From Alphaproteobacteria bacterium (GTDB lineage Bacteria > Pseudomonadota > Alphaproteobacteria > Rs-D84), in assembly GCA_017534945.1 (NCBI GenBank), contig JAFXVB010000023.1:1-58385 (forward strand): a stretch of DNA of 58,385 nucleotides, given 5' to 3'. The position numbers and the translations under genes are program-made. Each line of letters opens with the position of its first letter. Position 1 is the first letter of the stretch. Of this stretch, positions 14,030 to 57,741 are shown piece after piece. A model generated the notes under the pieces. The model saw only the letters and a program-made list of their open reading frames with translations, did not search any database and was not told the DNA's origin.

Positions 14030-14434
14030 ATGAACACAAATGAAGCAAAGTTTCACGAATCCCGTCGTATATTCATTATAAACCCCGATTTAGGATTAGT
14101 GATTGCTCCACCAAAGGTCAACATATCTCATGTGGATATGGTATACAACATGGGGTTCGATGACAAGCAGTATGCCAATGTTGTTTTGAATAAAATACCA
14201 CGTGGTTATTATATGAAAGGTGAATTGTGTGTGTACCAGGGGGCTTATGGACCAACATGGGAATTAGCGCAATCTAATTATCAAATTGTGCAACAATATA
14301 TACCTGACTTGCGTGCGTTGTTTAATTTGAATGACAATTCAAATATGTATCTGGGTGTGCGTGTGGGCAAGGTTGGTGATGTATGGGAAAAAATAAATAA
14401 AACAACCATTGGACAATTTATGCAACAACGGTAA
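14030..14434 (+). CDS. hypothetical protein
   Basis: 134-aa ORF with AAAGGT SD. Confidence 0.7.
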   Translation: MNTNEAKFHESRRIFIINPDLGLVIAPPKVNISHVDMVYNMGFDDKQYANVVLNKIPRGYYMKGELCVYQGAYGPTWELAQSNYQIVQQYIPDLRALFNLNDNSNMYLGVRVGKVGDVWEKINKTTIGQFMQQR

Positions 14435-14499
14435 AGAATTACGCTTGCGAAAAATTTTGAAATGTTTTAAATTCTGTTAAGTAAATAAAGATAAAGAAC

Positions 14500-43385: not shown

Positions 43386-43468
43386 TTGACTTTTGTATAT
43401 ATGTGTTATACCCTAACCAGTAAAGAAAGGAGACTAATAAGACATTGGGCGCTTGTTGGTCTTTTTTT
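43386..43468 (+). promoter_or_regulatory. promoter plus leader terminator of the radical-SAM operon
   Basis: TTGACT..TGnTATACC; AGACTAATAAG/CTTGTTGGTCT stem followed by a T-run. Confidence 0.55.
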
Positions 43469-43484
43469 ATTATAAGGATGAACT

Positions 43485-44606
43485 GTGGCAAATAAAACAT
43501 ATAATTACGACATATCCAATAAATTTATTGAATATTTTGACGGAAGGGTTAAACAAGTTTTCTTTTATACAACAGAGGACTGTCACTTACGTTGTAAACA
43601 ATGTTTGTATAAACCTAATTTGTTTTTTCAAATGAATAAAAGACATGAAATCCCGCTAAACCAAATGTGTGAATTGGCGCAAGATGTTTATACACTGGGG
43701 GCACGAAAAGCAACGATTATGGGCGGGGAACCATCAAAATATGGCGATTGCGAACACAAAGATTTAGGTCGTTTTATAAGATATTTGAAAGAAATCGGTT
43801 ATGCTTATGTGAGAATGGATACAAATGGTCAATTTGAAGATGATATGCTGAATTTGCCAGAGATAAAAAAGTTAGACGAGGTTTCTTTTAGCATAGATGG
43901 TTATTGCCCAACAATAAATGATTTCTTACGTGGGGCTGGCGCTTTCGATAAGTGCACTAAAAATATAAAAAGGGCGGTGGATTTAGGATATACTGTTGAC
44001 ATAACATCATGTATACATCCTATGTTGTTACAAAAGGATAAAAAAGGCCAATTAGAAATAGAAAATATGATACTTTTTGCCCAAGATCTTGGGGTTAGAA
44101 ATATCAATTTTCATGTTTTGTTTAAACATGGTTTTCCGATGGATACCTGGACAGAAGATACCGCTGTAAAACCAGAAGATTGGATTGTAGCAAGAGATAT
44201 TTTGGCAGAAAAAGTGGCATCTGGTGCATATAAAATTCATGTTCGTATTCCATACCACTTTGTAACACAAAAGGAATTTGATGCACATCCACAATATTAT
44301 GGGTATTGTCCTGCAAAGCTAGGAGAACGTTTATTAATCCATCCAGATGGTCAAATTAGAATTTGTTCTGGGTTAATCAGTTCAAAATATTGTGTTGCAA
44401 AATATTATGATCATAAAATTGTATGGGAAGAAGGCTATACAAACGAGCTATCTGATCATGATTTAGACAATCCAACACCGTGTACTAATCAAAGCAAGGG
44501 AATGAAATGTGGTAATTACTGTCCATTATGTTTCTCGTTCAAACCATATCAAAGAGAATATGTATGGCAGAATAAATTACAATGGGAACAACAGCATGTT
44601 AAATAA
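43485..44606 (+). CDS. radical SAM protein with a twitch/SPASM-like C-terminus
   Basis: CHLRCKQC, MGGEP, CPAKLGERLLIHPDGQIRIC. Confidence 0.92.
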   Translation: MANKTYNYDISNKFIEYFDGRVKQVFFYTTEDCHLRCKQCLYKPNLFFQMNKRHEIPLNQMCELAQDVYTLGARKATIMGGEPSKYGDCEHKDLGRFIRYLKEIGYAYVRMDTNGQFEDDMLNLPEIKKLDEVSFSIDGYCPTINDFLRGAGAFDKCTKNIKRAVDLGYTVDITSCIHPMLLQKDKKGQLEIENMILFAQDLGVRNINFHVLFKHGFPMDTWTEDTAVKPEDWIVARDILAEKVASGAYKIHVRIPYHFVTQKEFDAHPQYYGYCPAKLGERLLIHPDGQIRICSGLISSKYCVAKYYDHKIVWEEGYTNELSDHDLDNPTPCTNQSKGMKCGNYCPLCFSFKPYQREYVWQNKLQWEQQHVK

Positions 44607-45519
44607 TATTTCTTTTTCATTGACGAACAAGTGCAACAGTCGTTGTAGGATTTGCAATATATGGAAAACGAAGTCGTTTGAAGATGAAATGTCTGTACCG
44701 GATATTAAACATTTATTTGAACATAAGTGTTTTTCACAGGTGGATACTATAAGTTTGACAGGTGGAGAACCATTTTTGAGAAAGGATATTATAGATGTAG
44801 TGTACGGATTAAAAGAAAGCATGCCAAACTTGCAAAGGTTGTTTTTAAACACAAACGCGACCAATATACCCAAAATTGTACAGGTTTGTAAAATATCTAG
44901 CAATTTATTTAACAGTGTTATTCTAAGTGTTTCTTTGGACGGAGAAAAAGAAATTCACGATCGTTTACGTGGAATAAAAAATTACGATAACGTTATCAGT
45001 CTTTTAAAAGTTATGCAGCAACTCCCAGAAATCAATTTGTCTGTATCAATGACGTTGTCCCAAGAAAATACCAATTTAAAGAATTTAAAACACGTGAAAA
45101 ATATTGCCGAAAATAATAATGCAATGTTTAATTTCCGGTTTGCAGACAAGTCATCAACTTACTATAAAAATATGGATTTAGACTTGTCCGTAACAGAAAA
45201 TCAAAAAAAACAGGTTTCTGATTTTATTATTGCGAATTGTTCTGATAATGCTTTTTTAATGTGCTTGAAACAGTTTATAGATACGGGTAATCTAGATTTG
45301 TTGATTCAGAATGGAAAAAATAAATGTCTTGCAGGTAAAAAATTTGTATTTATTCATCCAAATGGTGTAATTTCGCCTTGCTTGTATAGTACACAACATA
45401 TAGCACCAGATGATTTATTATCAAAAGCACCCATTGTTATTGGAACAGACACGCCTTGTCCATGTTGTACAGATTGTGTTATATATCCAATGTTGGAAGA
45501 ACTACAAAAATCAAGATAA
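44596..45519 (+). CDS. radical SAM/twitch protein
   Basis: CNSRCRIC, LTGGEPF, CLAGKKFVFIHPNGVISPC...CPCCTDC. Confidence 0.92.
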   Translation: MLNNISFSLTNKCNSRCRICNIWKTKSFEDEMSVPDIKHLFEHKCFSQVDTISLTGGEPFLRKDIIDVVYGLKESMPNLQRLFLNTNATNIPKIVQVCKISSNLFNSVILSVSLDGEKEIHDRLRGIKNYDNVISLLKVMQQLPEINLSVSMTLSQENTNLKNLKHVKNIAENNNAMFNFRFADKSSTYYKNMDLDLSVTENQKKQVSDFIIANCSDNAFLMCLKQFIDTGNLDLLIQNGKNKCLAGKKFVFIHPNGVISPCLYSTQHIAPDDLLSKAPIVIGTDTPCPCCTDCVIYPMLEELQKSR

Positions 45520-45538: not shown

Positions 45539-46216
45539 ATGTACGAAGAATTGGTTGAAATAGTAAAAAATAAATTAAAATCGTCATCTCATGATTTGTC
45601 TCATACTTTCAGGGTATATAGCAATTGTATAAAAATAGCTCAAAACGAACCAAATTGTGTTGTAGATATTGATATTTTACAGGCTGCGGCTTTGCTGCAT
45701 GATATTGCGCGTCCCGAAGAAGACATGGCAAAAGATGGGAAAAAAGTAGATCATGCAATATTAGGCGCACAACAAGCACAAGAAATATTGGTAAATTTAG
45801 GAAAAACACAACAGTTTTCAGAATCTGTAGCTTCTGCAATCAAAACGCATAGGTTCCGCGGAGGGCTTGTGCCAGAAACTATGGAAGCCAAGATATTATT
45901 TGATGCAGATAAATTGGATGTTATTGGTAATATCGGTATTGCTCGTTCGTATATGATAGCTGGGGAACAAAAACAAGATATTTATAATGATTGTGATATA
46001 AATGAGTATGTGAAAAACAACTTGGTTGGTGGTGTTCCATCTGGAAAGATAATAGATATTTCAAAACATACACCGAATATAGAATTCGCGACTAAAAATG
46101 TGAATATCCCAAACAAAATGTTCACCCAAACGGGTAAAGAACTTGCTTTGGCGCGGTTGAAAAGAATGGAAGAATTTTTCAATATATTAAAACAAGAAAT
46201 TAGAGGTTCTATGTAA
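45539..46216 (+). CDS. HD-domain phosphohydrolase
   Basis: HDLSHTFRV, LLHDIAR, FDADKLD.IG.IGIAR. Confidence 0.92.
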   Translation: MYEELVEIVKNKLKSSSHDLSHTFRVYSNCIKIAQNEPNCVVDIDILQAAALLHDIARPEEDMAKDGKKVDHAILGAQQAQEILVNLGKTQQFSESVASAIKTHRFRGGLVPETMEAKILFDADKLDVIGNIGIARSYMIAGEQKQDIYNDCDINEYVKNNLVGGVPSGKIIDISKHTPNIEFATKNVNIPNKMFTQTGKELALARLKRMEEFFNILKQEIRGSM

Positions 46217-47157
46217 TGCATTACACAGAAGAAAATAATAGAATCAAATCGGATTTTATAACGTTTTTTAAAGAAAAGGGGTATGTTTTAGAGCCAAGTG
46301 TTGCATTAAATTCTAAAATAGACCCGTCTGTGTTTTTGGTTGGAAATTGTACGAATGTATTCAAACAACGTTTATTGAATCAAAATATAGGTAATAGCGG
46401 GCATGTGCTGGTGCAACCTGCAATAAATTCAAAAAAAATTCCAGATTTTTTCTCGCAAGAAATAAAACGATTTTCTTCATCATACACAAGTCTTGGGATT
46501 TTGCATGAATTAAAATATTTACACGATGTTATAACCTTGCAATACGAATTTTTTACGCAAATCGTTGGACTTGATTCTGCAAAAATATCCATAAGTGTAA
46601 ATTTTAACGATAAGGATTTTATAGATGCTCTTAAACACTATAGAAATTTGAATATTATAACAGAAAACGAATCTTGCAGAAACAAATTTGGTCAATGCGG
46701 AGATTTTTTGTTAACAGGTAGAAATATTCGTTTTTACTACAACGGAAATAATATTTGTGTATTATCTGTATATCAAAATGGCAAAAAAGATTTAGCAATA
46801 GAGAGTTCTTCAACGATACAAGTATTGTTAATGGAAAAATATTCTTTATCTAACACGATGGCGGTATCTGTATTAAATGACTTTTATCAAGCATCTAATA
46901 ATTATGAATTAAAATATTATGATTGCATATCCACAGTGGCCGAAATGTTACATTCTGGTATAAGGCCAAATTCGTCACATATGGATGGAAGAATTTTAAA
47001 AAAATACATCAAAATTGTAATTCAAACATGCAACAAAATGGATAAAAATTTAAGAAATTATAGTGATCTTATAGCTTTCTATTTAAATTCTACTTATCCT
47101 AATCATTGCATGGATATAAAATCAGTGGTGCAAGAGGCTTTTGAAAAATGTCGATAG
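46216..47157 (+). CDS. truncated, degenerate alanyl-tRNA-synthetase-like protein
   Basis: FITFFKEKGY..EPS, DPSVFLV, VQPAI, GIRPNSSHMDGRILKKYIK align to the AlaRS catalytic and helical domains. Confidence 0.7.
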   Translation: MHYTEENNRIKSDFITFFKEKGYVLEPSVALNSKIDPSVFLVGNCTNVFKQRLLNQNIGNSGHVLVQPAINSKKIPDFFSQEIKRFSSSYTSLGILHELKYLHDVITLQYEFFTQIVGLDSAKISISVNFNDKDFIDALKHYRNLNIITENESCRNKFGQCGDFLLTGRNIRFYYNGNNICVLSVYQNGKKDLAIESSSTIQVLLMEKYSLSNTMAVSVLNDFYQASNNYELKYYDCISTVAEMLHSGIRPNSSHMDGRILKKYIKIVIQTCNKMDKNLRNYSDLIAFYLNSTYPNHCMDIKSVVQEAFEKCR

Positions 47158-48041
47158 TTTTATCATATGATCCACGCACAGAGCCTTATTATGGTTTTTT
47201 TATTAAAAATGGTTACTCATATATCGGACATGGGTATATGCATGTTGTATTTGAGAAAAACGGAATAATTTACAAAGTATTACGCTCGGCATTTGGTACG
47301 GATAAAGATGTAAACAGATTTAAATTTGAAGCAGATATGCTAGAAACAGTGTCCAGGTACGGTGTTCCTGCGGCATCCGTTGTGCATATATATGCACCAG
47401 ACGAATTAATTCCAAATTATTGTGTCTTGGCAGAGAAAAAAATATTGGGTAAAATATATTCGTCCGAAGAATTAAATATAAAAAGAGTGTGCGAGATACA
47501 ATCTGTTTTAAATAAAGTACACAATATATCTCTAGATTTTTTTGGACCAATTTCTACACCGGTTTTACAAGTAAATACTTGGCGCGAATATATGAATTAT
47601 TTAATTAAAAAAGCGCATAAAATCAACAATATATTAAAAATTGATATAAACATACAAAAAGTAGAACAGTATTTTATAACACAATATAATTACAATGATA
47701 AAGCAAAATTTTTAATTCTGGACCCTAATGAAAAAAATTACATATTTGACTCTGATGACAATTTGAACGGTGTCATAGATATTGATCATCCTATTGCTTT
47801 TGATCCTTTATACGAGTTTGCGGGTTTTTTATATTCCAGACCCAAAACATTTTCTTTAATGCATAGGGCTAAAATTATAGATACAAAAGATATGCCTGTA
47901 ATCAAAAATTACGCAATAATTTATACTTTATACGATTTGTGGTTTCGATATGAAAAAAACAAATGTGTTATAAATAAAAGATTGGATTATTATATAAAAA
48001 AGGCTACAATGTTCTTGAAAAACTCAAAGGAAATATTATGA
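47148..48041 (+). CDS. aminoglycoside/choline-type phosphotransferase
   Basis: LDPNEKNYIF, GVIDID, FDPLYEFA. Confidence 0.75.
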   Translation: MSIVLSYDPRTEPYYGFFIKNGYSYIGHGYMHVVFEKNGIIYKVLRSAFGTDKDVNRFKFEADMLETVSRYGVPAASVVHIYAPDELIPNYCVLAEKKILGKIYSSEELNIKRVCEIQSVLNKVHNISLDFFGPISTPVLQVNTWREYMNYLIKKAHKINNILKIDINIQKVEQYFITQYNYNDKAKFLILDPNEKNYIFDSDDNLNGVIDIDHPIAFDPLYEFAGFLYSRPKTFSLMHRAKIIDTKDMPVIKNYAIIYTLYDLWFRYEKNKCVINKRLDYYIKKATMFLKNSKEIL

Positions 48042-48763
48042 AACTTATATTATGTGGCGGGGGCTGGGCAGAAAAAACTGTGATTCCAAATAAATTATTT
48101 GAAACCCTAATTGATACAAGTAAACCTATTTTGTATATCCCGTTGGCCAGAAATGCAGGTGAAGATAATTATGACAGTTGTAAAACATGGCTAGAGGGCG
48201 AATTTCAAAACATAAGACATGGTGAAATCGTTATGTTGCGTTCGGTATCAGAAATAGCAGATAAAAACGTGAATGATTTTACTGGGGTGTTTATTGGTGG
48301 GGGAAATACATATAAATTATTGAAAGAATTAAAAGAAGGCCCCGCATTTGATTGGTTACAAGAATATATACAAACAAACGGCGTCATTTATGGTTGCAGT
48401 GCCGGATCAATTATTTTTGGACACGATATAGATGCTTGTTTATATATGGATGAAAACAATGTTGCACTAACAGATGTGAAAGGGTTTAATTCAATTTTCG
48501 GTTTTTCTTTTACAGCACATTATACCAACAAAAACGAAGAAAAAACAAAAAAAGCAACAGATTATTTGATTGAATATTCTAAAAAAACACTCGTTTTGGC
48601 TTTGCCAGAAGAAGATAGTTTGTATATAAACGGTGATTTAGTTAAAGTCATTGGTTCAAGACCATATTACGTTTTCAATAAAGGTATTAGATTAGAATTT
48701 CAACCAAACACAGAATATACCCAGGATGAGTTTATAAAACAAATAAGCAATGTCCAGATTTAA
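48038..48763 (+). CDS. peptidase family S51 (dipeptidase E-like)
   Basis: ILYIPLA, FIGGGNT, YGCSAGS, TAHY. Confidence 0.88.
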   Translation: MKLILCGGGWAEKTVIPNKLFETLIDTSKPILYIPLARNAGEDNYDSCKTWLEGEFQNIRHGEIVMLRSVSEIADKNVNDFTGVFIGGGNTYKLLKELKEGPAFDWLQEYIQTNGVIYGCSAGSIIFGHDIDACLYMDENNVALTDVKGFNSIFGFSFTAHYTNKNEEKTKKATDYLIEYSKKTLVLALPEEDSLYINGDLVKVIGSRPYYVFNKGIRLEFQPNTEYTQDEFIKQISNVQI

Positions 48764-50306
48764 TGTAAATATTTCCAAATTTGAACAAAGTTCTCTATCT
48801 GATAGTCAGACAAGGGAACTTTTTACATATATAGAAAAAAAATTACCAGATTTGATACGTATTTGCGGGCGCGCTATTAAGTATGTATTACGAAATAATT
48901 TGGATTACAGATTGATAACTGTTGGTAATGATTATGTGATAGTAATAAGAAAAACAACAAAATCAAGCAGTTCAATTTGTATAGGTTATCCTTTTCCAAT
49001 AATGGTGAAAAAAATATATCAGGGTTTATTTGATGGTTTTTGCGTTAATTATTACATAAGGGGGGACAAGTTAAGAAATGCACAACGCATGCATTTGCTT
49101 CAAAAACTCAAAGAAAATAACAAAAATTTTTCTATTAAATTTTGTCATTCTAAATTTGGTTTAAGATTCGCCTTGCAAAGATATATCAAAACCTTAAAAC
49201 CGTATACGTTATATTATCTAGATTTATATAGATTTATAGGAGATTCTTTTTTAAGTACATATATGTTAGATGCTTTTGCAAAAGAATTAAATATAAAACA
49301 AAGTATCGTGTTGTCCCAACATGCGCAAAAACTTTCTGGTTTTTATAAAACAATGGATTTAAATGATTGGGATAAAGTATCAGATAACGGTATATATATT
49401 TTTTCTGATTTATTGGATATAGATGATGCATGGGTTCATGAATTTGCTGTAAAACAAGCTAAAAATGGGGTTTATATATTAAATAGTAGAAATAGTTTTT
49501 TTGTAAAAAATGAGGATACAGTTCAATATTTTGCAATAAAAAATAAACCAGACATATTGCTTACACGTGGTAATATATTTGCATATATGAACAGAAGTAT
49601 TTCATCGTTCATAAAAACGAAACTGCATATATATAAAAAAACTATCAAAATTGAAAACATAAAAAGGATTTATATAAATCCTTTCTCGTCATCAATACAA
49701 AAAAGTTTCTCAGAACAAGAAATGTTTTATCTTGTAAAACAATTAAAAACAGATTTTCCATATGTCGACATTTTTATACCATTTGGTTATGATGTTAGCA
49801 CAAAAATATACAGTATAAAAATTTCAAAAAAGTTAAATTTAAAAAGACTAAAAGACAAAGGGTTTTATGACTTAATCAATAAACTACGTTCAAACCATAT
49901 TGATTTAATAATAACTCCAGATACCGCACTGACGCATATTGCAACAAAATGTAATATAAAAAATATTGTTGTTTTTAAATCTGGTTTTTGGGATCCCCTA
50001 TCTTTGCAATCGCTTGCCGCAGAATCGCCGCTGTCGTTTATTAGTCCAAATCCATATCAATTGCCAATAGTGTTATCATCGGCAAATAATAAAGATTTTC
50101 ATAAAGTTTCAGATGTCATATGCCTAATTCAAAAGGTTAATAGTCAAAAAATTGATAAAATATATAATTTTTGTTCTTTTAAGTTTTCGTTATTTGACAA
50201 TATCATATTGTTCAAATTAAGAAAGATATTAGGGCTAACATACAAATTAAAATATTATAAAAAAAGGAAAACAAATGGTATGTGTGATTCAAAAATGGGT
50301 GTTTAA
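48750..50306 (+). CDS. glycosyltransferase family 9-like protein with an N-terminal extension
   Basis: FIGDSFL, YINPFSS, LIITPDTALTHIA. Confidence 0.7.
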   Translation: MSRFNVNISKFEQSSLSDSQTRELFTYIEKKLPDLIRICGRAIKYVLRNNLDYRLITVGNDYVIVIRKTTKSSSSICIGYPFPIMVKKIYQGLFDGFCVNYYIRGDKLRNAQRMHLLQKLKENNKNFSIKFCHSKFGLRFALQRYIKTLKPYTLYYLDLYRFIGDSFLSTYMLDAFAKELNIKQSIVLSQHAQKLSGFYKTMDLNDWDKVSDNGIYIFSDLLDIDDAWVHEFAVKQAKNGVYILNSRNSFFVKNEDTVQYFAIKNKPDILLTRGNIFAYMNRSISSFIKTKLHIYKKTIKIENIKRIYINPFSSSIQKSFSEQEMFYLVKQLKTDFPYVDIFIPFGYDVSTKIYSIKISKKLNLKRLKDKGFYDLINKLRSNHIDLIITPDTALTHIATKCNIKNIVVFKSGFWDPLSLQSLAAESPLSFISPNPYQLPIVLSSANNKDFHKVSDVICLIQKVNSQKIDKIYNFCSFKFSLFDNIILFKLRKILGLTYKLKYYKKRKTNGMCDSKMGV

Positions 50307-50730
50307 TGATAATATAAGCATGAAACAACAAAGTATGCTCTTATCCGGATTACGTGGGTGTGACGGTATATATAACGATGATATATCAAAAACAATAATC
50401 AGGAAAATTCGGTGCACCGTATTAAATAATGCTGCCGACAATAATACAAATTTTATGCGAGGGGACATATCTCTAGATGTATTAGCTAATTTTGCCAAAA
50501 GTCGTAATAAATATCCTGTACATTTTTATATGCATGTTTGTTATTGTTGTGAAATCATTGGTTTTAAACATCCTGATGAAAATATCAGAAAATGGTTTTA
50601 TAAGGCTTATTGTTTATTAGTCAAAGCTCTTTACCTTAACCCAGAAACAGAACAAGAATGCGATGAAAGACTTCAAGACGGTAAAACAATATCTTTTGAT
50701 GATTATGCAAAAAACATAATCACATATTAG
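50275..50730 (+). CDS. hypothetical protein
   Basis: 151-aa ORF; LLSGLRGCDG, PVHFYMH. Confidence 0.7.
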   Translation: MVCVIQKWVFNDNISMKQQSMLLSGLRGCDGIYNDDISKTIIRKIRCTVLNNAADNNTNFMRGDISLDVLANFAKSRNKYPVHFYMHVCYCCEIIGFKHPDENIRKWFYKAYCLLVKALYLNPETEQECDERLQDGKTISFDDYAKNIITY

Positions 50731-51361
50731 AATTTTGGTTATAAAGTTCAGGGTTAAGGTTCTTGTCGTTATACATCTTTAGTTGTTTGTAAACAATCGG
50801 TCTTTTGGTACCATTAATGTATTCTGTAATCAAATTTTTAAACGCAGAAACCAAATCCTTTTGTTGTTGATTCAGTTTATTTAATCTATCAACAATCATT
50901 TTATAATCGTTGTCTTTGGATTTGGCTAATGTTCTTCGTTTTTTCTCTGCGTTCATATGGTATATTTTTAAAGATAATATTGACAACCTATCAATTATAC
51001 TACCAATAGATTCCGTATTAAATGGTATAGACGAATCATTAACAATAAAATCTTTTAATAATAATATAAAGTTGTCATCAATTTGTTCGTAAAATTCTGT
51101 TCGTTGTTTATTAAGAAAATCAATTTCTCGCTTACAATCAGCAATGTGCTTATCAGAAATATCTAGATTTCGTGTTACATCTTCAATGTGCCATAATTTA
51201 AAATTCATAAAATGATTATTGATAACATTTTGGATAACTAAATCAGCATTATCAACTAAAAAATCAATGTTTTTATGCCATTTTCGTGTTAATGTGGCTT
51301 GGGTGTAAACAATTTTATCCACAAGAATACACAATTTTTCTTTCAAATCAGCCGAACCCAT
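50720..51361 (-). CDS. DUF4254 family protein
   Basis: LWHIED, ESIGSIIDRLSILSLKIYHM, YKQLKMYND. Confidence 0.85.
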   Translation of the reverse strand: MGSADLKEKLCILVDKIVYTQATLTRKWHKNIDFLVDNADLVIQNVINNHFMNFKLWHIEDVTRNLDISDKHIADCKREIDFLNKQRTEFYEQIDDNFILLLKDFIVNDSSIPFNTESIGSIIDRLSILSLKIYHMNAEKKRRTLAKSKDNDYKMIVDRLNKLNQQQKDLVSAFKNLITEYINGTKRPIVYKQLKMYNDKNLNPELYNQNSNM

Positions 51362-51546: not shown

Positions 51547-51837
51547 TTGCGTGAAGAGTTTATGGAACCGTTGGGGTTGTCCATGAATGCTCTGGCACGT
51601 GCGATTGATGGCCCGGCAAACTATATTCATGGTATCGTGCATGGAATACGTGGTATTTCTGCTACGATAGATTTGCGCCTTACTCGTTACTTTGGTTTAT
51701 CCCAAGGATACTTTCTGCGTATTCAAATGCATTACGATATGGTGTTGGCCTCTCGTAATATAAGCGATAAAGAACTGGCAAAAATTATACCGCTTAATCG
51801 TCCGGCAAATGAAAGTTTAAATGTTGCTGTGATATAG
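51547..51837 (+). CDS. higA: HigA-family antitoxin, orphan, N-terminus uncertain
   Basis: LREEFMEPLGLSMNALARAI...DLRLTRYFG. Confidence 0.85.
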   Translation: MREEFMEPLGLSMNALARAIDGPANYIHGIVHGIRGISATIDLRLTRYFGLSQGYFLRIQMHYDMVLASRNISDKELAKIIPLNRPANESLNVAVI

Positions 51838-51865
51838 CGTTGGTTCGTTTTTTGAATGACACGCC

Positions 51866-51895
51866 CTATGAGGCGTGTTTTTTTATTGTATATGT
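51866..51895 (+). terminator. terminator
   Basis: ACACGCC-ctatga-GGCGTGT plus T tract. Confidence 0.75.
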
Positions 51896-52785
51896 TGTGT
51901 AATGTGCTTTGTGTAGCTAATATGTAGATTTTTGTTTTTATGTTGGTATTCCACCATAAATAGAGAAAATTTTTAGCAGACATACGGACCGCAGTTGCCT
52001 GTTTCCTGCGGATTTTAAGAGTTTTTTTATTGTGATATACGGACTGGTCCGTATATTTAGGGGTGTTTTTTGTAAAAATGGCCATTTTTATGCTTTTATA
52101 AATGATCAACATTTTATCAAATTTTCCCGGAAATCCGCAGTTTTTGTATGTATAATTTATCTGACAAAGCGACATACGGATTAACAGCGACCCCTTAATG
52201 AATATTTATTTTTATGCACTTGAGTGTAAACCTAACGGCCTGTGTGCCACAGATGCTGCGGTGTTGCAGAGTTGTGCTTTTGCAAAAAATTAACAAAAAA
52301 TACACCCAAAAGTGTGCTAAAGTTGTACCAAAATATATCTGGGGTGTAGCTGTTTTTTTAGAGCGCAAAAAGGCCTTACAAAGCCCGATTGAACTAGATT
52401 TAAATGTATCTTGTGTATAGAAAATTTCTTTTTGTGTTTGCCTGACGTTTTAACAGTAATTTTATTGCAAAAATAGTATTTTTTCTACGCCAAAATGCAT
52501 AAAAATAACCGAAGATAATTTGTATAAAATGTCATATAACAATAGTATGTAAAGTAGCATATGTGTTGTTTTTTATTCGTAAACATATTGCAGGTTTCAT
52601 GTTTGTCTTGTTATTGGCATAATAAAAATAATTATTAGTGATACTTGAAAAATCGTTTTGATGTATTACCTTTACAGAGAAGAAGTAAGAATACGAACCT
52701 TTCTGAAAGGTTCGTTTTTTTATTGACTTTTTATAAATTTAATGTCAAAATCAACAAAACTTCGTTAAAAATGGAGTGAAATATC

Positions 52786-53976
52786 ATGTTTTTAAACTTT
52801 AAAATCAAAAATTATCGTTCAATAGGTCAAGAAATTGTGGTGGATTTCGCTATATCTGATAGCCAGAAAATAAGTGCTTATTCAGAAGTGAATGGCAAGG
52901 CCATAAATAACATAGCTTGTATTGTTGGTCCTAATGCTAGTGGTAAAAGCAACATTCTCAAGGGAATAGTATTGTTCTTGCGTTACATGTGTAGGTCGTA
53001 TTCAATTCCCAGTTTTAGAGATGCGAGCCTTTTTGATACACATTTTTGTTGTAAGGGTCAACCAATAGAGTTTTCAACTGAATTTATAGACGATGACACA
53101 CAATATAAATACGAGATATCAATTCTTAATAATGTTGTTCTGAAGGAAACATTTTCTGTATTAAATGAAGACACAAAACGGTATAACATAGTTTTTAAAA
53201 GAGAAGCTTATAAGCCTATTCAGACAACGATTGATATAAATGAACAAGATTTAGAAAGACTACAAAACGATATGTCTTTGTTATCTTTGATGCTCGAATT
53301 GAATTATTTTAATAAAAACGAATTGAAAATATTAAAAAGCTTTTTAACAAACGTTAGTCCAGAGTTTTATGTTGGTTATCCAAATCCTCTGGTGAGATTA
53401 AATGCATTAACAAGAAGACTCGAACAGGATGGTTTGTTGTTGGAAGAACTAATAGAAGAATTGAAAAACATATATACTGGGATAACGGGGTTGTCTTTGG
53501 ACAAACTAAAAAATGCTAATGCTAATGCGCTTGGTGAAAAGGAGTATTCGACTATAATAGCTCATCACAAGATAGCTAATTCAAATCATCCTTTGCTCAT
53601 TTTGGAGGAGTCTAGCGGCACATTACATTATATAGAGCTGTTTATACATTTATACGAAATTTTCAAAAATGGTGGATTATTGATATCTGATGAATTGGAG
53701 CAAAGTTTACACCCCGATATCACCAATAGAATCATAAGCAGGTTTTTGGATAAAAATAAAAATCCGAATAATGCGCAGATTTTATTTACAACACATAATC
53801 CATGGTTTTTACAAGATTTAACAAAAACACAAATCTTTATAGCAGAAAAGAATACTAAAGGTGAGACGGAATTAACAAGATTGGATGATATACAAGGCGT
53901 TAGAAACGATGAAAACTATTTCATAAAGTATTTGGCGGGAGAATATGATGGTCGCCCAAAGATAAAGGATGTGTAG
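52786..53976 (+). CDS. AAA_21/AbiEii-like ATPase
   Basis: IVGPNASGKSN, ESSGT, LISDELEQSLHP, QILFTTHNP. Confidence 0.9.
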   Translation: MFLNFKIKNYRSIGQEIVVDFAISDSQKISAYSEVNGKAINNIACIVGPNASGKSNILKGIVLFLRYMCRSYSIPSFRDASLFDTHFCCKGQPIEFSTEFIDDDTQYKYEISILNNVVLKETFSVLNEDTKRYNIVFKREAYKPIQTTIDINEQDLERLQNDMSLLSLMLELNYFNKNELKILKSFLTNVSPEFYVGYPNPLVRLNALTRRLEQDGLLLEELIEELKNIYTGITGLSLDKLKNANANALGEKEYSTIIAHHKIANSNHPLLILEESSGTLHYIELFIHLYEIFKNGGLLISDELEQSLHPDITNRIISRFLDKNKNPNNAQILFTTHNPWFLQDLTKTQIFIAEKNTKGETELTRLDDIQGVRNDENYFIKYLAGEYDGRPKIKDV

Positions 53977-54721
53977 GGTTATGAATAGGAAAAAGCGTAA
54001 TTCTATAGTCGTCGTACATGAGGGATATCGGGAGGGCTATTTTGTGGAATACATATCACAATTTAGCCCTTTGAGGGTAAATTTGCAACCCTGTTATGGC
54101 GAAAGTGCTACACATGTACTCAATATGGCTTTCAAGCGTTCTGATTTGGGACTCAGAGTGGTGGCTTTTTTTGATGAAGATTTTGAAGGTATAGAACAAC
54201 GTAAAATAGAATCTGAAACTTTTAAAATTTTATCAGCACGTTGGGGGACAGAAAATGAAATTTTGTCTAGTACTTCGTACAAAGAATTGCAGGGTCTTAA
54301 TAGTAAGAACAAAAACCCTGTATTGGCTGTATCAAACCCGCAATCAATAGAGGGGCTTATATTAACTATTCTTGATGTGCCAGAATCGGAACTTGAGGGT
54401 AAATCTACAAATGTATTAAAAGGTAAATTAGATGTATTGCTTAACAAAGTTGTTCTTAAGCAGGAAGACGCGGAACTTATCGCTTTATATGATGAAAAAA
54501 TTGCAAAACATAACGCGGAGATACAAAAATTATTAGAAGAGGAGCCTAAAAATAATACATTGTTAAAATATCATAATGGAAAAAAACAAGAATTTGGACG
54601 TAAGAAAAATGAAGTAATTTTTAAGCGTTTTTTAGCCAACAATATCAGTTTAGAGATTTTACAGAATAAGCGTGTCACAATAAAATCACTAGATATTTTA
54701 TTAAGCGAATTAGGAATATAA
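53969..54721 (+). CDS. RloB-like TOPRIM protein
   Basis: IVVVHEG.REGYF, AFFDED, VSNP. Confidence 0.7.
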   Translation: MCRVMNRKKRNSIVVVHEGYREGYFVEYISQFSPLRVNLQPCYGESATHVLNMAFKRSDLGLRVVAFFDEDFEGIEQRKIESETFKILSARWGTENEILSSTSYKELQGLNSKNKNPVLAVSNPQSIEGLILTILDVPESELEGKSTNVLKGKLDVLLNKVVLKQEDAELIALYDEKIAKHNAEIQKLLEEEPKNNTLLKYHNGKKQEFGRKKNEVIFKRFLANNISLEILQNKRVTIKSLDILLSELGI

Positions 54722-54727
54722 AAATTA

Positions 54728-55009
54728 TTATTTATGTCTAGCTTTATGACATTTATCACAAATAGAAACAAGCCAGCCAATCGGTTCGCGACCGATGTTT
54801 TTTGCGTATTTTAGATGGTGAACTTGGGTTGCGCGTGAACCACAATAAACGCAGCGCCAATGGTCTCGTTTTAATACAAGATAACGTTTTCGTTGCCAGG
54901 CTTCGGATTGTAAATAGTCGTTTCTATAATAATCTCTGCGCAATTTACGTTTGAAACGGTTAATAAATACACATACAGCAACAAAGATAACAGCAGTTAA
55001 AAATTCCAT
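54728..55009 (-). CDS. HNH endonuclease with an N-terminal hydrophobic segment
   Basis: CVYCG..ATQVHH...LVSICDKCH. Confidence 0.85.
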   Translation of the reverse strand: MEFLTAVIFVAVCVFINRFKRKLRRDYYRNDYLQSEAWQRKRYLVLKRDHWRCVYCGSRATQVHHLKYAKNIGREPIGWLVSICDKCHKARHK

Positions 55010-55033
55010 TGCAATTTATAACCTATCCAAGTA

Positions 55034-56008
55034 TTATGCCGGCAGGTACACTTTTCTAAGAGGTAATAAAAGTTTACCTTCTGCTCTAAAGTTATCATAG
55101 TGCAGGGTAACTAACTCTGCTAACATATTTAAATCTATCAATGTTAGAGGTATTTCAGAACGATCTGCTTCATATTTAGCTTCTTTTGTAAAACCGCCTG
55201 TGCTGATATACAGACATTTATCTCCTTTTCTACGTCCGCCCATAAAACTTCGTATTTTTTGTGTACCCATTTGGCCCTCTCTATGCTTGACCTCCACAAA
55301 AATACGGGGTTCTTCCAATCCGAGGCCGTCCTTAGAAGCAAAGACATCTGTGCCTCTGTCAGAACCTTTTTGAGTTCGTCTAGCAATATACCCCATTGCA
55401 TTTAATATTTCTTTCGCCAATTCTTCCATATCATCAGGTGCTAAAGAAAGAATTTTATCTTTTAATAATTCAACAGAGTTTTCTAAAAGATTACCTGTTT
55501 GTTGTTCTGTTTCTTGTTCTTTTTCATCTTCTGTTTTTTCTTGAATCTTTTTACCTTCAAGTATATTTCTGAATTCTGATTCTATTTCTTTTGTTACACT
55601 AAACAAGGTTTGAGATGCCCCCAAATAATTTTTAGCAGTTATAGACAGAAGATCTCTAGAAACAGTCTTTTTATTCCATTTTACTTTCCGGATATTAGGT
55701 CTTTCCTCTTTTTTAATAAAAGAATAATCGCTTGTGATTTCTGCTATATGATACACGCGTAATGAAGAATCATACGTTATAACGAGATCTCCAATTTTCA
55801 TTTTGTTAGCAAAATTATCGAGCATACTTGCCCAGACGGGGATAGATTTGTATTTGTTTGGGTATTCTTTTGATAAAGCTTGTTTTATATTTTCTCGACT
55901 TTTACCATGTAGATCACCTATCAACCCCCAACCAAGAGCAACAATATTTTTCCCTATAAATTCCGGTAATAAATCGCCGCCTAAAGATCGCAGCATCCAC
56001 ATAGACAT
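55034..56008 (-). CDS. Mrr-family (type IV-like) restriction endonuclease
   Basis: MWMLR, DRGTDVFA, VEVKHR, ISTGGFT..A..EA. Confidence 0.88.
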   Translation of the reverse strand: MSMWMLRSLGGDLLPEFIGKNIVALGWGLIGDLHGKSRENIKQALSKEYPNKYKSIPVWASMLDNFANKMKIGDLVITYDSSLRVYHIAEITSDYSFIKKEERPNIRKVKWNKKTVSRDLLSITAKNYLGASQTLFSVTKEIESEFRNILEGKKIQEKTEDEKEQETEQQTGNLLENSVELLKDKILSLAPDDMEELAKEILNAMGYIARRTQKGSDRGTDVFASKDGLGLEEPRIFVEVKHREGQMGTQKIRSFMGGRRKGDKCLYISTGGFTKEAKYEADRSEIPLTLIDLNMLAELVTLHYDNFRAEGKLLLPLRKVYLPA

Positions 56009-56171
56009 AGTTTACTCCTATAGTATCTGTTAATCACTTATGATTATACACCCAAACCCACCTTTTTGCAATATGGAGTAATACGGTTCAAATTTTATAA
56101 TGTAAAAATATTTGTTCTCTTGACTTTACATCTTATTTTCGGGTACGTTCGCTTAAACGGGAAATAATGAT

Positions 56172-57056
56172 ATGGTGGACACAAAGAGACAACATTATGT
56201 GCCAAGGTTTTTGTTGAAACACTTTTGTGCGGATGGTCATACAATAAATGTTACAGACATCATTGAAAATAGAACATATCCTGCAAACATTATGAATGTG
56301 GCACAAGAAAAATATTTTTATGAGTTAGATACAGATAAGGGCAAGGTCTCATTAGAGAAACAATATGCTGGGTTAGAAGACAAAGTTGCTCCAATTATTG
56401 ATAAAATTGTAAAAACAGAATCTATAGGATGGTTTAAGGATGAGCATTTTCAAATTTTAGAAGATTTCATTTTGTGTCAGTTTTATAGAACCAGAAAATA
56501 TGTAAATCATGTGAAAAGTTTTCTGCAATCAAATAACATACCTTTATTAGATTTGGTAGATCAAGAAGGAAACATAAAGAAAACTTTAAATTGTGAGGAT
56601 ATTGGTATAGATGATAATGTTGCCAGGGTTATGAGTTATAATTTTTTGTATCATGTTGAACACGATGACGTTATCCGTGATGCTATAGCATCGATGGAAT
56701 GGACATTGTTCAAAGCAACTGGTACGCAGAATTTTATCACGTCTGATAACCCGACAGTATTAAACAATCATTTGGCATTTATGGAAGATAACGGTAAAAC
56801 AAGCGGTTTTGAATTGCCTCATTCGCAAATATTTTTGCCAATTTCATCAAAGTTAATATTAACATTGACGGCCGAAACTATGGCGGAAGAGGCCAGGACA
56901 AACTTATTAAAAGTTATGATGAAAGGAATTCCAGTGGTAATTAGTGATGCGTTTAAATGTTCTGTTACTGGTGAGGCAGCACGATGTCCAGACGGACTTG
57001 TCAAACTGTTTAACGAATCGCAAAAACGCAATGCAGAACGGTTCCTTTTTGACTAA
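56172..57056 (+). CDS. DUF4238 domain protein
   Basis: QHYVPRFLLKHF, FITSDNP, FLPIS. Confidence 0.88.
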   Translation: MVDTKRQHYVPRFLLKHFCADGHTINVTDIIENRTYPANIMNVAQEKYFYELDTDKGKVSLEKQYAGLEDKVAPIIDKIVKTESIGWFKDEHFQILEDFILCQFYRTRKYVNHVKSFLQSNNIPLLDLVDQEGNIKKTLNCEDIGIDDNVARVMSYNFLYHVEHDDVIRDAIASMEWTLFKATGTQNFITSDNPTVLNNHLAFMEDNGKTSGFELPHSQIFLPISSKLILTLTAETMAEEARTNLLKVMMKGIPVVISDAFKCSVTGEAARCPDGLVKLFNESQKRNAERFLFD

Positions 57057-57435
57057 TTTTAATGTTTTTCTAACAATTCGCTTAATAAATATAACAAAAA
57101 AGGGGATAAAAACACATAAAATACCTTGTTTTTACGCTCTGAATATCGCAGAAAACAGGCGTTTTAAAAATGCAAGCAAAAAAGCGGCTTTTTTGCTCAA
57201 AAAGGTTAATGAAAAACATGATAAAATACTGTATATTGTGGTTGTGGATGAATTGAGACACAAAATGTTGATAAAACATCCTGGGGATATTGCTCTAACA
57301 ACATCCCCAAAAACGGTTACCCAAATATAATAAGGGGCACCTAACTCACTCCTTATTATAGCAAAATTTTATGCTATTGGCAAATATTTTGTTTTTTTGG
57401 GTGCATGGTAACTTGACTAAAATAAGGAGTTTAAT

Positions 57436-57696
57436 ATGTCAAGATGTTTAAGAACATGGGACTTGGAAGTCCATCACAAAAATGTTAACGGTGGTAACGG
57501 ACTGGATAATGCGAAAGTATTATGCCATAAATGTCACGTTAATACCAGTTCTTATGGTGATACAGGACACAATAGCCCAGAACCCTTTTCTCAAGAAACA
57601 AAAGATAAGGCGCTAAGACGTGCAAATTATCAATGTGAATGCACAAAAGGTGATTGCTGTTGGTCGCAAGACCGGTTTATTATTTGTTCTACTTGA
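57436..57696 (+). CDS. small HNH-like protein, apparently circularly permuted
   Basis: LEVHH...DNAKVLCHKCH precedes FSQETKDKALRRANYQCEC. Confidence 0.7.
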   Translation: MSRCLRTWDLEVHHKNVNGGNGLDNAKVLCHKCHVNTSSYGDTGHNSPEPFSQETKDKALRRANYQCECTKGDCCWSQDRFIICST

Positions 57697-57741
57697 CATT
57701 AACCCTTGTTTTGGGCTAAGTTTTTCCTAAGGAAAGGAATT

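What the first reader, a model, noticed from the sequence alone, without database searches (positions are those of the whole stretch)
46216..47157. AlaRS paralogue that has lost its class II catalytic arginines
Seen: 313 aa covering only the catalytic and helical domains. By-eye alignment to canonical AlaRS gives QxCxR to QPAIN, RHHTFFEMLG to RFSSSYTSLG, and DTGMGLER to ESSSTIQV. Known: the motif 2 and 3 arginines bind ATP. Inference: a pseudo-enzyme, a tRNA-binding transferase, or a decoy for an aaRS inhibitor.
Basis: partly seen in the sequence, partly recalled or inferred. Interest (0 to 1): 0.6.

Follow-up and report, generated by a model that had tools for sequence, protein, structure and literature searches.

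The report
AlaRS-derived enzyme lacking both catalytic arginines
A one-third-size copy of alanyl-tRNA synthetase that cannot activate amino acids is kept under selection inside a rare, mobile eight-gene cassette of a tiny gut bacterium, where it most likely attaches an amino acid to a modified nucleoside or sugar rather than charging tRNA.

Summary
ORF 46216-47157 (+) encodes a 313-aa protein whose confident model superposes on AlaRS catalytic fragments (Z 28.6). Profile alignments place Asn71 at the motif 2 arginine and Val203 at the motif 3 arginine. It is not decaying: 14 clusters down to 39% identity keep length, frame and 45 invariant residues, and the host also has a normal AlaRS.

New here: it belongs to a large unnamed family of short AlaRS-like proteins (at least 218 clusters at 50% identity). 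The whole family lacks the motif 3 Arg. Only the window's clade, monophyletic and nested within that family, also lost the motif 2 Arg. The wider family sits in cassettes of HD phosphatase, methyltransferase, AlaRS-like gene, S66 (MccF-type) peptidase and an AsnRS-like core. The window's clade sits with two radical SAM enzymes, an HD phosphatase, a kinase, an S51 peptidase and a GT9-like protein.

The closest characterised analogue is AcmF, the AlaRS-like Ala-tRNA-dependent transferase of ascamycin biosynthesis, which has the same Asp-to-Glu change. Best reading (about 50%): an AcmF-like aminoacyl transferase with a re-tooled, uncharged acceptor pocket. The scan noted this family before in two other genomes, with a similar reading.

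The parts
43426..43468 (+). Leader hairpin followed by a U-run (terminator-like), between a promoter-like site and the SD and start of rSAM1
   Evidence: Sequence. Conserved with a compensatory-type change in L001. RNA fold -17.2 and -17.5 kcal/mol, z -4.9 and -5.1. No Rfam match.
43485..44606 (+). rSAM1: SPASM/twitch-type radical SAM enzyme, the most conserved gene of the cassette
   Evidence: PF04055. 85% and 80% identity in L001 and L002. Large family still about 50% identical across phyla. Model pLDDT 87.8. Structural neighbours tied among SuiB, BlsE, SkfB, anSME, MoaA and viperin at Z 20-23.
44509..45519 (+). rSAM2: second radical SAM enzyme (true start probably later than the longest ORF)
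   Evidence: PF04055 and twitch/SPASM NCBIfam hits. Weak PDB hits to SkfB, BlsE and MoaA. 63% and 50% identity in L001 and L002.
45539..46216 (+). HD-domain phosphohydrolase of the YedJ/YpgQ type; its stop codon overlaps the AlaRS-like start (TAATG)
   Evidence: PF01966 and PRK10119. PDB 2pq7, 3gw7 (YedJ), 5dqv. Junction sequence. Falls in the same BLAST cluster as the HD genes of 24 wider-family loci.
46216..47157 (+). The finding: 313-aa AlaRS-derived protein (P0001), catalytic fold plus partial helical domain
46414..46434 (+). Q67-P-A-I-N71-S-K73: degenerate motif 2 core (AlaRS QxCxRAGGK). N71 replaces the catalytic Arg; K73 is invariant
46750..46761 (+). N179-I-C-V182, aligned to AlaRS E-I-W-N (AcmF E216..Q219): both polar ligands are replaced in this clade
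   Evidence: AcmF residues from PMC12945691.
46801..46824 (+). E196-S-S-S-T-I-Q-V203: degenerate motif 3. Invariant Glu at AlaRS Asp235 / AcmF Glu232; Val at the motif 3 Arg
46966..47007 (+). P251-NSSHMDGRILKK-Y264: conserved helical-domain motif aligned to AlaRS PSN-DRGYVIRRI (acceptor-stem-binding domain)
47148..48041 (+). APH-fold kinase-like protein (weak match)
   Evidence: PF01636 E=2.7e-4, below cut-off. Only a marginal hygromycin kinase hit in PDB. 60% and 40% identity in L001 and L002.
48038..48763 (+). Peptidase S51 (PepE-like) with its catalytic motifs kept
   Evidence: PF03575 E=1.2e-26. GGNT, G-C-S-A-G and His aligned to Lmo0363 and PepE. An S51 gene also follows the AlaRS-like gene in L014.
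48750..50306 (+). GT9-like (heptosyltransferase-fold) protein, 518 aa
   Evidence: PF01075 E=0.017 for residues 382-410. Atlas feature score 0.95 and structure TM 0.5-0.68 to GT9 clusters. Conserved in L001 and L002.
50275..50730 (+). 151-aa Cys-rich protein with no detectable family
   Evidence: No Pfam, NCBIfam, PADLOC or Atlas hit. 77% identical in L001, not found in L002.
50720..51361 (-). Convergent DUF4254 gene, also kept next to the cassette in L002
   Evidence: PF14063 E=2.9e-40. 45% identity at L002:13353-13967.

Best explanation
P0001 is a functional, selected descendant of the AlaRS catalytic core that no longer activates amino acids with ATP. It most likely acts as an aminoacyl transferase of the AcmF type. 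It would bind an aminoacyl donor, most probably the 3' end of an aminoacyl-tRNA from the host pool, holding the amino group with Glu196, and pass the amino acid to a small-molecule acceptor bound where AlaRS binds the adenylate. That acceptor would be made by its operon partners: two radical SAM enzymes, a YpgQ-type HD nucleotide phosphohydrolase, an APH-fold kinase and a GT9-like transferase, which points to a modified nucleoside, nucleotide-sugar or sugar. The S51 peptidase encoded downstream would remove the amino acid again, for self-protection or activation, as AcmE does for ascamycin and MccF for microcin C. Because this clade replaced the motif 2 Arg and the E-I-W-N ligands with Asn, Val, Tyr, Thr and Ser, its acceptor probably lacks the anionic phosphate- or sulfamate-like group and is hydroxyl-rich. 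Shown: the fold, the motif losses, purifying selection, operon conservation and the family-wide pairing with a peptidase. Inferred: tRNA as donor, the nature of the acceptor, and the role of S51.
For: AlaRS fold with a confident model. Both class II arginines absent. Invariant Glu196 at AlaRS Asp235 / AcmF Glu232, which is essential in AcmF (PMC12945691). AcmF is a 370-aa truncated AlaRS-like Ala-tRNA-dependent transferase in a cluster that also holds radical SAM genes and a de-alanylating hydrolase. Retained helical-domain motif PNSSHMDGRILKKY. 45 invariant columns and intact frames down to 39% identity. Operon conserved and translationally coupled in three genomes. A distant family member (24% identity, another phylum) again sits between radical SAM, phosphatase and S51 genes. 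In the wider family, S66/MccF-type peptidase lies within 5 kb in 18 of 18 well-flanked loci, an AsnRS-like core in 17 of 18, a methyltransferase in 14 of 18 and HD or HAD phosphatases in most. S51 keeps its catalytic motifs. The host has a normal AlaRS with all motifs, so this gene is not needed for tRNA charging.
Against: No assay and no tRNA-binding evidence. The helical domain stops at about AlaRS residue 354, so the distal tRNA-recognition part is absent. AcmF keeps its motif 2 Arg (R93) and uses it to bind the acceptor, and this clade does not. In the wider family an apparently competent adenylate-forming AsnRS-like core is adjacent, so the natural donor could be an aminoacyl-adenylate rather than aa-tRNA. 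The rSAM1 fold neighbours include peptide-modifying enzymes as well as nucleoside-modifying ones, so the substrate class is open.
Confidence: 0.5

Rival explanations
1. A tRNA-independent transferase or ligase. The protein takes an activated intermediate made by a partner enzyme (an aminoacyl-adenylate, as the neighbouring AsnRS-like core could make in the wider family, or a phosphorylated intermediate from the APH-like kinase in this clade) and joins it to the acceptor. The AlaRS fold is used only as an adenylate- or nucleoside-binding pocket.
For: The AsnRS-like core with intact motif 2 and 3 arginines lies next to the AlaRS-like gene in 17 of 18 well-flanked loci. In the window's clade a kinase occupies the following position. 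The tRNA-recognition domain is truncated.
Against: The window's cassette has no adenylate-forming enzyme. The clade lost exactly the residues that would hold an adenylate phosphate. The only characterised AlaRS-like relative uses aa-tRNA.
Confidence: 0.2
2. A non-catalytic binding or scaffold subunit (a HisZ-like pseudo-synthetase). It binds a nucleoside-like intermediate or a tRNA and presents it to, or regulates, the radical SAM, HD or kinase partners.
For: Both catalytic arginines are gone. HisZ-type regulatory aaRS paralogues appear among the structural neighbours at Z 13-15. Translational coupling to HD and the kinase.
Against: The conserved residues cluster at the active-site equivalents, including the Glu that is essential for catalysis in AcmF. 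The most constant partner across the superfamily is a peptidase, which fits making and breaking an aminoacyl bond.
Confidence: 0.15
3. A pearlin- or RiPP-like pathway. The protein adds an amino acid from aa-tRNA to the end of a scaffold peptide, the radical SAM enzymes modify it, and the S51 peptidase releases the modified residue.
For: The rSAM1 model is as close to the peptide maturases SuiB, SkfB, PqqE and anSME as to nucleoside enzymes. SPASM/RiPP maturase NCBIfam hits. A peptidase is in the operon.
Against: No conserved small precursor ORF upstream or inside the three intact loci. HD nucleotide phosphohydrolase, kinase, GT9-like, HIT and MccF-type partners point to nucleotide or sugar chemistry.
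Confidence: 0.08
4. An immunity decoy that sequesters an AlaRS-directed inhibitor (an aminoacyl-adenylate mimic) made by the cassette or by competitors.
For: AlaRS-shaped pocket. The cassette lies at the edge of a variable region rich in defence genes. aaRS-inhibitor clusters often carry aaRS-like resistance genes (established knowledge, from memory).
Against: The residues that bind the adenylate phosphate and ribose are the ones replaced. A peptidase better suited to immunity is already present. A stoichiometric decoy would be costly.
Confidence: 0.07

Closest known systems
AcmF (ascamycin biosynthesis, Streptomyces sp. 80H647 / JCM9888): AlaRS-like aminoacyl-tRNA-dependent transferase (Zheng et al. 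2024 ACS Catal 14:3533, as reviewed in PMC12945691)
   Same: Short stand-alone AlaRS-like protein (370 aa against 313 aa) with only the aminoacylation domain and part of the tRNA-recognition domain. Lacks the ATP and alanine activation residues. Glu replaces the amino-group-binding Asp (AcmF E232, here E196). No Asp-plus-Asn G3:U70 recognition pair. Encoded with radical SAM or Fe-S genes and with a hydrolase that removes the aminoacyl group.
   Different: AcmF keeps its motif 2 Arg (R93) and has Glu216/Gln219 to bind the nucleoside sulfamate; here these are N71, N179 and V182. The partner genes differ: no sulfate-activation genes and no extra full-length AlaRS (AcmD). The hydrolase is S51, not alpha/beta. 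The host is a 0.9-Mb gut alphaproteobacterium. Direct sequence comparison was not possible.
Canonical alanyl-tRNA synthetase catalytic fragment (e.g. PDB 9jc7, 1riq, 3hxu)
   Same: Same fold over about 300 residues (Z 28.6). Shared N-terminal motifs (F-x-x-F-F, D-P-S/T, F-K, Q67, L-G94) and a helical-domain motif.
   Different: About 14-16% identity. Both class II arginines are lost, along with the E-I-W-N Asn and the GPCGPC loop. No distal tRNA-recognition, editing or C-Ala domains. Scores 22 bits against the 457-bit alaS cut-off.
Microcin C immunity and maturation logic (MccF, S66 peptidase)
   Same: The wider family is almost always next to an S66 peptidase, and this clade is next to an S51 peptidase with a related Ser-His-Glu-type chemistry and a PepE-like profile. 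This suggests an aminoacyl-nucleotide-type bond is being made and cleaved.
   Different: No MccB-type adenylyltransferase and no precursor peptide. Analogy of context only; the function of these peptidases is untested.
Other aaRS paralogues that aminoacylate non-tRNA or non-canonical acceptors (SbzA IleRS-like, GluQ-RS/YadB, EpmA/PoxA, AsnA, SerRS-like aa:carrier-protein ligases) and HisZ
   Same: Truncated synthetase cores recruited to new acceptors or to regulation.
   Different: Apart from SbzA (aa-tRNA-dependent) and HisZ (regulatory), these keep ATP-dependent activation, and none derives from AlaRS.

Membership tests
Canonical AlaRS (NCBIfam TIGR00344 alaS; Pfam PF01411) | Class II AlaRS catalytic fold | tested here: met
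   VIA Z 28.6 to 9jc7_A, 300 residues aligned. Foldseek TMq 0.75-0.80.
Canonical AlaRS (NCBIfam TIGR00344 alaS; Pfam PF01411) | Score above curated family cut-off | tested here: not met
   TIGR00344 22.2 bits against a cut-off of 457. PF01411 30.9 against 30.3, marginal and residues 10-155 only.
Canonical AlaRS (NCBIfam TIGR00344 alaS; Pfam PF01411) | Motif 2 arginine (QxCxR) | tested here: not met
   N71 at that column in three independent alignments. N in 21 of 21 clade members.
Canonical AlaRS (NCBIfam TIGR00344 alaS; Pfam PF01411) | Motif 3 arginine (DTGxGLER) | tested here: not met
   V203 at that column. R/K in 0 of 21 clade members and 4 of 142 wider-family members.
Canonical AlaRS (NCBIfam TIGR00344 alaS; Pfam PF01411) | Full tRNA-recognition, editing and C-Ala domains | tested here: not met
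   The protein ends at about AlaRS residue 354. The host's real AlaRS is a separate gene of about 700 aa.
AcmF-type AlaRS-like aminoacyl-tRNA-dependent transferases | Truncated AlaRS (aminoacylation plus part of the tRNA-recognition domain) lacking ATP and alanine activation residues | tested here: met
   AcmF description in PMC12945691; 370 aa in PMC4257720.
AcmF-type AlaRS-like aminoacyl-tRNA-dependent transferases | Glu in place of the amino-group-binding Asp (AcmF E232, essential) | tested here: met
   E196 invariant in the clade and E in 130 of 142 wider-family members.
AcmF-type AlaRS-like aminoacyl-tRNA-dependent transferases | Motif 2 Arg retained as acceptor (sulfamate) ligand (AcmF R93), with Glu216/Gln219 | tested here: not met
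   N71, N179 and V182 in P0001. The wider family keeps R and D-I-G-N.
AcmF-type AlaRS-like aminoacyl-tRNA-dependent transferases | Detectable sequence homology to AcmF itself | not testable with these tools
   No AcmF sequence in reach. Residue-signature scan of 170 retrieved proteins found none, and no AcmF-named protein appeared.
AcmF-type AlaRS-like aminoacyl-tRNA-dependent transferases | aa-tRNA-dependent aminoacyl transfer to a small molecule | not testable with these tools
   Needs biochemistry.
HisZ-like regulatory pseudo-synthetases | Partnership with the regulated enzyme (HisG) and HisRS-type fold | tested here: not met
   No HisG-like neighbour. HisZ and HisRS score only Z 13-15 against 28.6 for AlaRS.
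AlaX / AlaXp free-standing editing proteins | AlaRS editing (second additional) domain | tested here: not met
   The match is to the aminoacylation domain only.
Anti-phage defence systems in PADLOC | Match to a known defence protein model | tested here: inconclusive
   Only generic radical SAM similarity to pVip (E 1e-7 to 1e-9) and of HD to Cas3-HD. Nothing for the AlaRS-like protein.

The most novel reading that the evidence does not exclude
Short AlaRS-derived proteins form a large, unrecognised enzyme superfamily that marks a widespread class of aminoacyl-nucleoside or aminoacyl-sugar natural-product cassettes, always carried with a cleaving peptidase, in environmental and human-gut bacteria with small genomes. 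The window's clade would be a re-invention within it: having lost the last phosphate-binding arginine, it aminoacylates a neutral, radical-SAM-tailored sugar or nucleoside scaffold from aminoacyl-tRNA, giving a new Trojan-horse-type compound in Candidatus Enterousia.
Probability: 0.3. Interest if true: 0.8.

Novelty: new variant of a known kind. Interest (0 to 1): 0.62.

Why it matters
Only one AlaRS-derived transferase (AcmF) has been characterised. Here the same idea appears as a family of hundreds of sequence clusters with two distinct, conserved gene cassettes, none of which I could find in the literature searched. The window's clade shows a second step of active-site remodelling, with both class II arginines gone, while staying under selection. 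That gives a natural experiment in how a synthetase core is converted to new chemistry. The cassette is rare and mobile and sits in roughly 1-Mb gut bacteria, where every gene is costly, which suggests a strong ecological payoff such as an antibiotic-like or defensive metabolite. The cassette is small enough (8 genes, 7.3 kb) to express heterologously, so the question is directly testable.

Tried and rejected
Contexts were obtained through the search for related loci, the genome search and the fetch from genomes instead.
- hhalign of the narrow clade (A1) against AlaRS aligned only the first ~147 residues. Using the wider family (A2) as a bridge gave a full-length alignment.
A tighter subgroup (A3) worked, so the 60 loci represent one subgroup and are not independent.
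- AcmF could not be identified among the retrieved proteins, either by residue signature or by source name.
- L003's fragmented cassette is not rescued by code 4. The split AlaRS-like and AsnRS-like genes in L067 are frameshifts, not TGA recoding.
- No Rfam family in the leader or elsewhere in the cassette.
- PADLOC gave only generic radical SAM and HD similarities.
- Neither the AlaRS-like clade nor rSAM1 was found in viral contigs.
- rSAM1 was not found in 401 sampled Bacillota genomes.
- No conserved precursor-peptide ORF upstream of rSAM1.
- The rSAM1 fold search could not separate peptide from nucleoside substrates.
- unk151 has no detectable relatives in any library.
- Literature searches for the cassette (AlaRS-like plus radical SAM; MccF plus tRNA synthetase-like; DUF4254) found nothing relevant.
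- dN/dS was not attempted, because the available DNA pairs are 60% and 40% identical at protein level and synonymous sites would be saturated.
Full report
**The object.** ORF 46216-47157 on the plus strand encodes a 313-aa protein, P0001. Its ATG shares a base with the stop codon of the preceding HD gene (TAATG), and an AGAGG lies 8 nt upstream. Its 3' end overlaps the next gene by 10 nt. It is the fourth gene of a tightly packed, same-strand operon:
- rSAM1, 43485-44606
- rSAM2, 44509-45519
- HD phosphohydrolase, 45539-46216
- AlaRS-like, 46216-47157
- APH-like kinase, 47148-48041
- S51 peptidase, 48038-48763
- GT9-like protein, 48750-50306
- a 151-aa unknown, 50275-50730
- a convergent DUF4254 gene, 50720-51361

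No plus-strand terminator-like site lies inside the operon.

**Checking the observation.** Sequence similarity to AlaRS is faint. Pfam PF01411 gives 30.9 bits against a cut-off of 30.3, for residues 10-155 only. TIGR00344 gives 22 bits against 457. phmmer against the PDB gives E=0.26.

The fold, however, is unambiguous. An AlphaFold2 model built on 14 homologues has pLDDT 90.2 and pTM 0.89. It matches AlaRS catalytic fragments first by Foldseek (TMq 0.75-0.80, E about 1e-15). An independent all-against-all aligner gives 9jc7_A at Z 28.6, with 300 residues aligned at rmsd 2.8, model residues 5-313 on AlaRS residues 1-354. The next non-AlaRS fold scores Z 16. So the protein is the AlaRS aminoacylation domain plus only the first part of the helical tRNA-recognition domain.

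For residue-level mapping I aligned the canonical AlaRS genes of the four host genomes. All have intact QKCIRAGGKHND, HHTFFEMLGN, GDTGPCGPC, EIWN, DTGAGLER and PSN-DRGYVIRRILRRA motifs. I then compared profiles. The narrow clade aligned only over its N-terminal half. The wider family, used as a bridge, gave 306 aligned columns at 99.3% probability, E 1.4e-20. In P0001:
- Q67-P-A-I-N71 lies on Q-K-C-I-R.
- R85-FSSSYTSL-G94 lies on (S/R)HHTFFEMLG.
- N179-I-C-V182 lies on E-L/I-W-N.
- E196-SSSTIQ-V203 lies on D-TGAGLE-R.
- P251-NSSHMDGRILKKY lies on PSNTDRGYVIRRI.

**Not decay.** The 5.8-billion-protein collection holds 14 clusters of this protein, at 39-100% identity and all 311-321 aa apart from two shorter, probably partial sequences. 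Their alignment has 45 invariant columns, among them Q67, N71, K73, S88, Y90, G94, G168-R169, E196, T200, N213-T214, D/E236, P251-N-S-S and R259. The Bacilli MAG locus L003 shows what decay looks like: rSAM2 and HD in pieces and an 85-aa stub of the AlaRS-like gene, not rescued by genetic code 4. The window's genome (0.91 Mb, 89.6% complete) has a separate canonical AlaRS on contig 1, as do the other hosts.

**A large unnamed superfamily, and a derived clade.** An exhaustive HMMER scan of 1.84 billion cluster representatives found 218 relatives at E<=1e-3. Almost all of the 150 listed are 270-420 aa, and only three score below 1e-30.

Alignment of these shows that the wider family keeps Q-x-C-x-R-T: R or K in 137 of 142 at the N71 column. 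It also keeps D-I-G-N, with N in 115 of 142 at the V182 column. It already has Glu at the AlaRS Asp235 position (130 of 142) and lacks the motif 3 Arg (R/K in 4 of 142). The window's clade of 21 sequences has N71 in 21 of 21 and V, T, I or N at 182. It also has its own invariant residues: Y90, Y186, T200, N213 and T214.

In a maximum-likelihood tree rooted on canonical AlaRS, the clade is monophyletic (support 1.0) and sits on a long branch. It is nested several nodes (support 0.94-0.99) inside the Arg-retaining family, and its sister group still has the Arg. The history is therefore two steps: the motif 3 Arg was lost at the origin of the superfamily, and the motif 2 Arg was lost later in this clade.

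**Gene context.** The operon is conserved gene for gene in another Candidatus Enterousia genome (L001) and, except for S51 and the 151-aa gene, in an unrelated alphaproteobacterial MAG (L002). rSAM1 is 85% and 80% identical, HD 80% and 69%, and the AlaRS-like, kinase and GT9-like genes about 60% and 40%.

A Bacilli genome (G676, L014) has a 24%-identical wider-family member flanked by a radical SAM/His_Phos_1 fusion, a second radical SAM gene, an S51 peptidase and a metallo-beta-lactamase-fold gene.

Sixty metagenome loci of one Arg-retaining subgroup share a cassette of HD, SAM methyltransferase, AlaRS-like gene, Peptidase S66 (the MccF/LdcA family) and an AsnRS/AsnA-like catalytic core without an anticodon-binding domain. 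In the 18 loci with at least 2.5 kb on both sides:
- S66 is within 5 kb in 18.
- The AsnRS-like core is there in 17.
- The methyltransferase is there in 14.
- HD is there in 8.
- HAD phosphatases are there in others (5 counts across two HAD clusters).

The loci are related, so they are not independent. The AsnRS-like core keeps its own motif 2 and motif 3 arginines. Human-gut variants add a HIT-domain protein, a small P-loop kinase and a radical SAM gene.

The constant partner of the AlaRS-like gene throughout is thus a serine peptidase, either S66 or S51. The window's S51 keeps the GGNT, G-x-S-A-G and His motifs. The HD protein is of the YedJ/YpgQ type; YpgQ is, from memory, a nucleotide pyrophosphohydrolase.

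**Accessory and mobile.**
- The clade was not found in 400 sampled genomes of the class.
- With rSAM1 as probe, the cassette is present in only 2 of 301 genomes of the order. These are the window's genome and one other among 233 same-genus species, which by its coordinates is the L001 genome.
- ackA upstream is conserved in same-genus genomes, but nothing from about 41.6 kb to beyond 57 kb is. In the L001 genome the cassette lies about 80 kb from ackA.
- The cassette is 26-33% GC, against about 40% for ackA.
- Downstream lie an AbiEii-like ATPase, HNH, an Mrr-type endonuclease, DUF4238 and a D12 methyltransferase.
- All hosts found have genomes of 0.9-1.1 Mb.

**Comparison with what is known.** AcmF of the ascamycin cluster is a 370-aa protein annotated as alanyl-tRNA synthetase (PMC4257720). 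It has been shown to be a truncated AlaRS-like enzyme that lacks most ATP and alanine activation residues and carries N219Q and D232E. It transfers Ala from Ala-tRNA(Ala) to the sulfamate nitrogen of dealanylascamycin. Glu232 is essential, Arg93, Glu216 and Gln219 hold the acceptor, and the Asp-plus-Asn G3:U70 recognition pair is absent. AcmE hydrolyses the product back (PMC12945691).

The window's protein shares the architecture, the loss of activation residues, the Asp-to-Glu change and the neighbouring hydrolase. It differs in having replaced the equivalents of Arg93, Glu216 and Gln219, and its operon partners are different. I could not obtain AcmF's sequence, so membership in one family with AcmF is untested. 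No paper describing these cassettes was found.

**Mechanism proposed.** The most economical reading is an AcmF-like aminoacyl transferase. Glu196 would hold the amino group of the incoming aminoacyl moiety. The retained basic helical motif and K73 would bind the acceptor end of an aminoacyl-tRNA. The former adenylate pocket is now lined by Asn, Ser, Thr and Tyr instead of Arg, Asp/Glu and Asn. It would bind a neutral, hydroxyl-rich acceptor produced by the radical SAM, HD, kinase and GT9-like enzymes. S51 would cleave the aminoacyl bond for self-protection or activation. The conserved scaffold enzymes (rSAM1, HD) evolve slowly, while the AlaRS-like, kinase and GT9-like genes evolve fast. This resembles the core-versus-tailoring pattern of biosynthetic clusters, but that is inference.

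The main rival is that the donor is not tRNA but an activated intermediate from a partner enzyme. A scaffold role, a pearlin-like peptide pathway and a decoy role are less likely. rSAM1's fold does not decide between peptide and nucleoside substrates, and no precursor peptide ORF is conserved.

**Earlier scan notes.** A first-stage note on the same window describes the operon as a whole (e1-5227012). Two follow-ups on other genomes (e1-1112053, e1-946439) described related stand-alone AlaRS-core paralogues and also named AcmF as closest known. I reached the AcmF comparison through my own literature search before seeing them. They agree with this report but are not independent evidence.

**Verdict.** This is a new variant of a known kind. 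The new elements are the derived loss of the second arginine and the two conserved cassette types.

Noticed in passing
window 43426-43468 (and L001:7212-7251): A strong hairpin followed by a U-run sits between a promoter-like site and the SD of rSAM1 (-17 kcal/mol, z about -5). It is conserved in L001 with a G-to-A change that keeps pairing. It looks like a terminator or attenuator locking the operon, reminiscent of the terminator-locked promoters noted elsewhere in this genome. No Rfam match.
   Followed up: partly
L003:8031-10258 (Bacilli MAG JBKDZP010000004.1): A decayed remnant of the same cassette: rSAM2 and HD in fragments and an 85-aa stub of the AlaRS-like gene. It is not rescued by genetic code 4. 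This points to cross-phylum transfer followed by loss.
   Followed up: partly
L002:7186-7261 and 14115-15044: In the alphaproteobacterial MAG a tRNA-Phe(GAA) gene lies 23 nt upstream of rSAM1 on the same strand, next to pheS. This could be an island insertion site or a co-transcribed tRNA. The locus lacks S51 but has an alpha/beta hydrolase (S33 aminopeptidase-like) just beyond DUF4254.
   Followed up: no
L015-L074, e.g. L041:6465-11259: The wider Arg-retaining family sits in a conserved five-gene cassette of HD, SAM methyltransferase, AlaRS-like gene, S66 (MccF/LdcA-type) peptidase and an AsnRS/AsnA-like catalytic core with intact motif 2 and 3 arginines. It appears undescribed.
   Followed up: partly
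L046, L047, L052 (human gut metagenomes), e.g. L047:5052-10136: A variant cassette with a small P-loop kinase (AAA_18), a HIT/DcpS-like protein, the AlaRS-like gene, a divergent S66 peptidase and a radical SAM gene.
   Followed up: no
L066-L069, e.g. L067:6379-9384: In four assemblies the AlaRS-like and AsnRS-like genes are each split by frameshifts into three ORFs, while the S66 peptidase between them is intact. This is not stop-codon recoding (code 25 tested). It could be assembly error, or loss of the synthetic genes with retention of an immunity-type peptidase.
   Followed up: partly
window 51700-58383: The variable region downstream looks like a defence island, with an AAA_21/AbiEii-like ATPase (52786-53976), HNH (54728-55009), an Mrr_cat endonuclease (55034-56008), DUF4238 (56172-57056) and a D12 adenine methyltransferase (57706-end). 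None of it matches the same-genus genomes searched.
   Followed up: partly
G000 contig 1, 4704-6314 region (L004): The host's canonical AlaRS open frame is only about 700 aa, against 888 aa in G402, so it may lack the C-terminal C-Ala domain. That would fit genome reduction.
   Followed up: no
window 43485-44606 (rSAM1) homologues P0176-P0295: rSAM1 belongs to a large family (at least 352 clusters) that stays about 50% identical across phyla (Oscillospiraceae, Parcubacteria). That is far wider than the AlaRS-like clade, so the core chemistry exists without this partner. Matching contig lengths suggest co-location with other AlaRS-like members (P0212/P0173, P0183/P0167).
   Followed up: no
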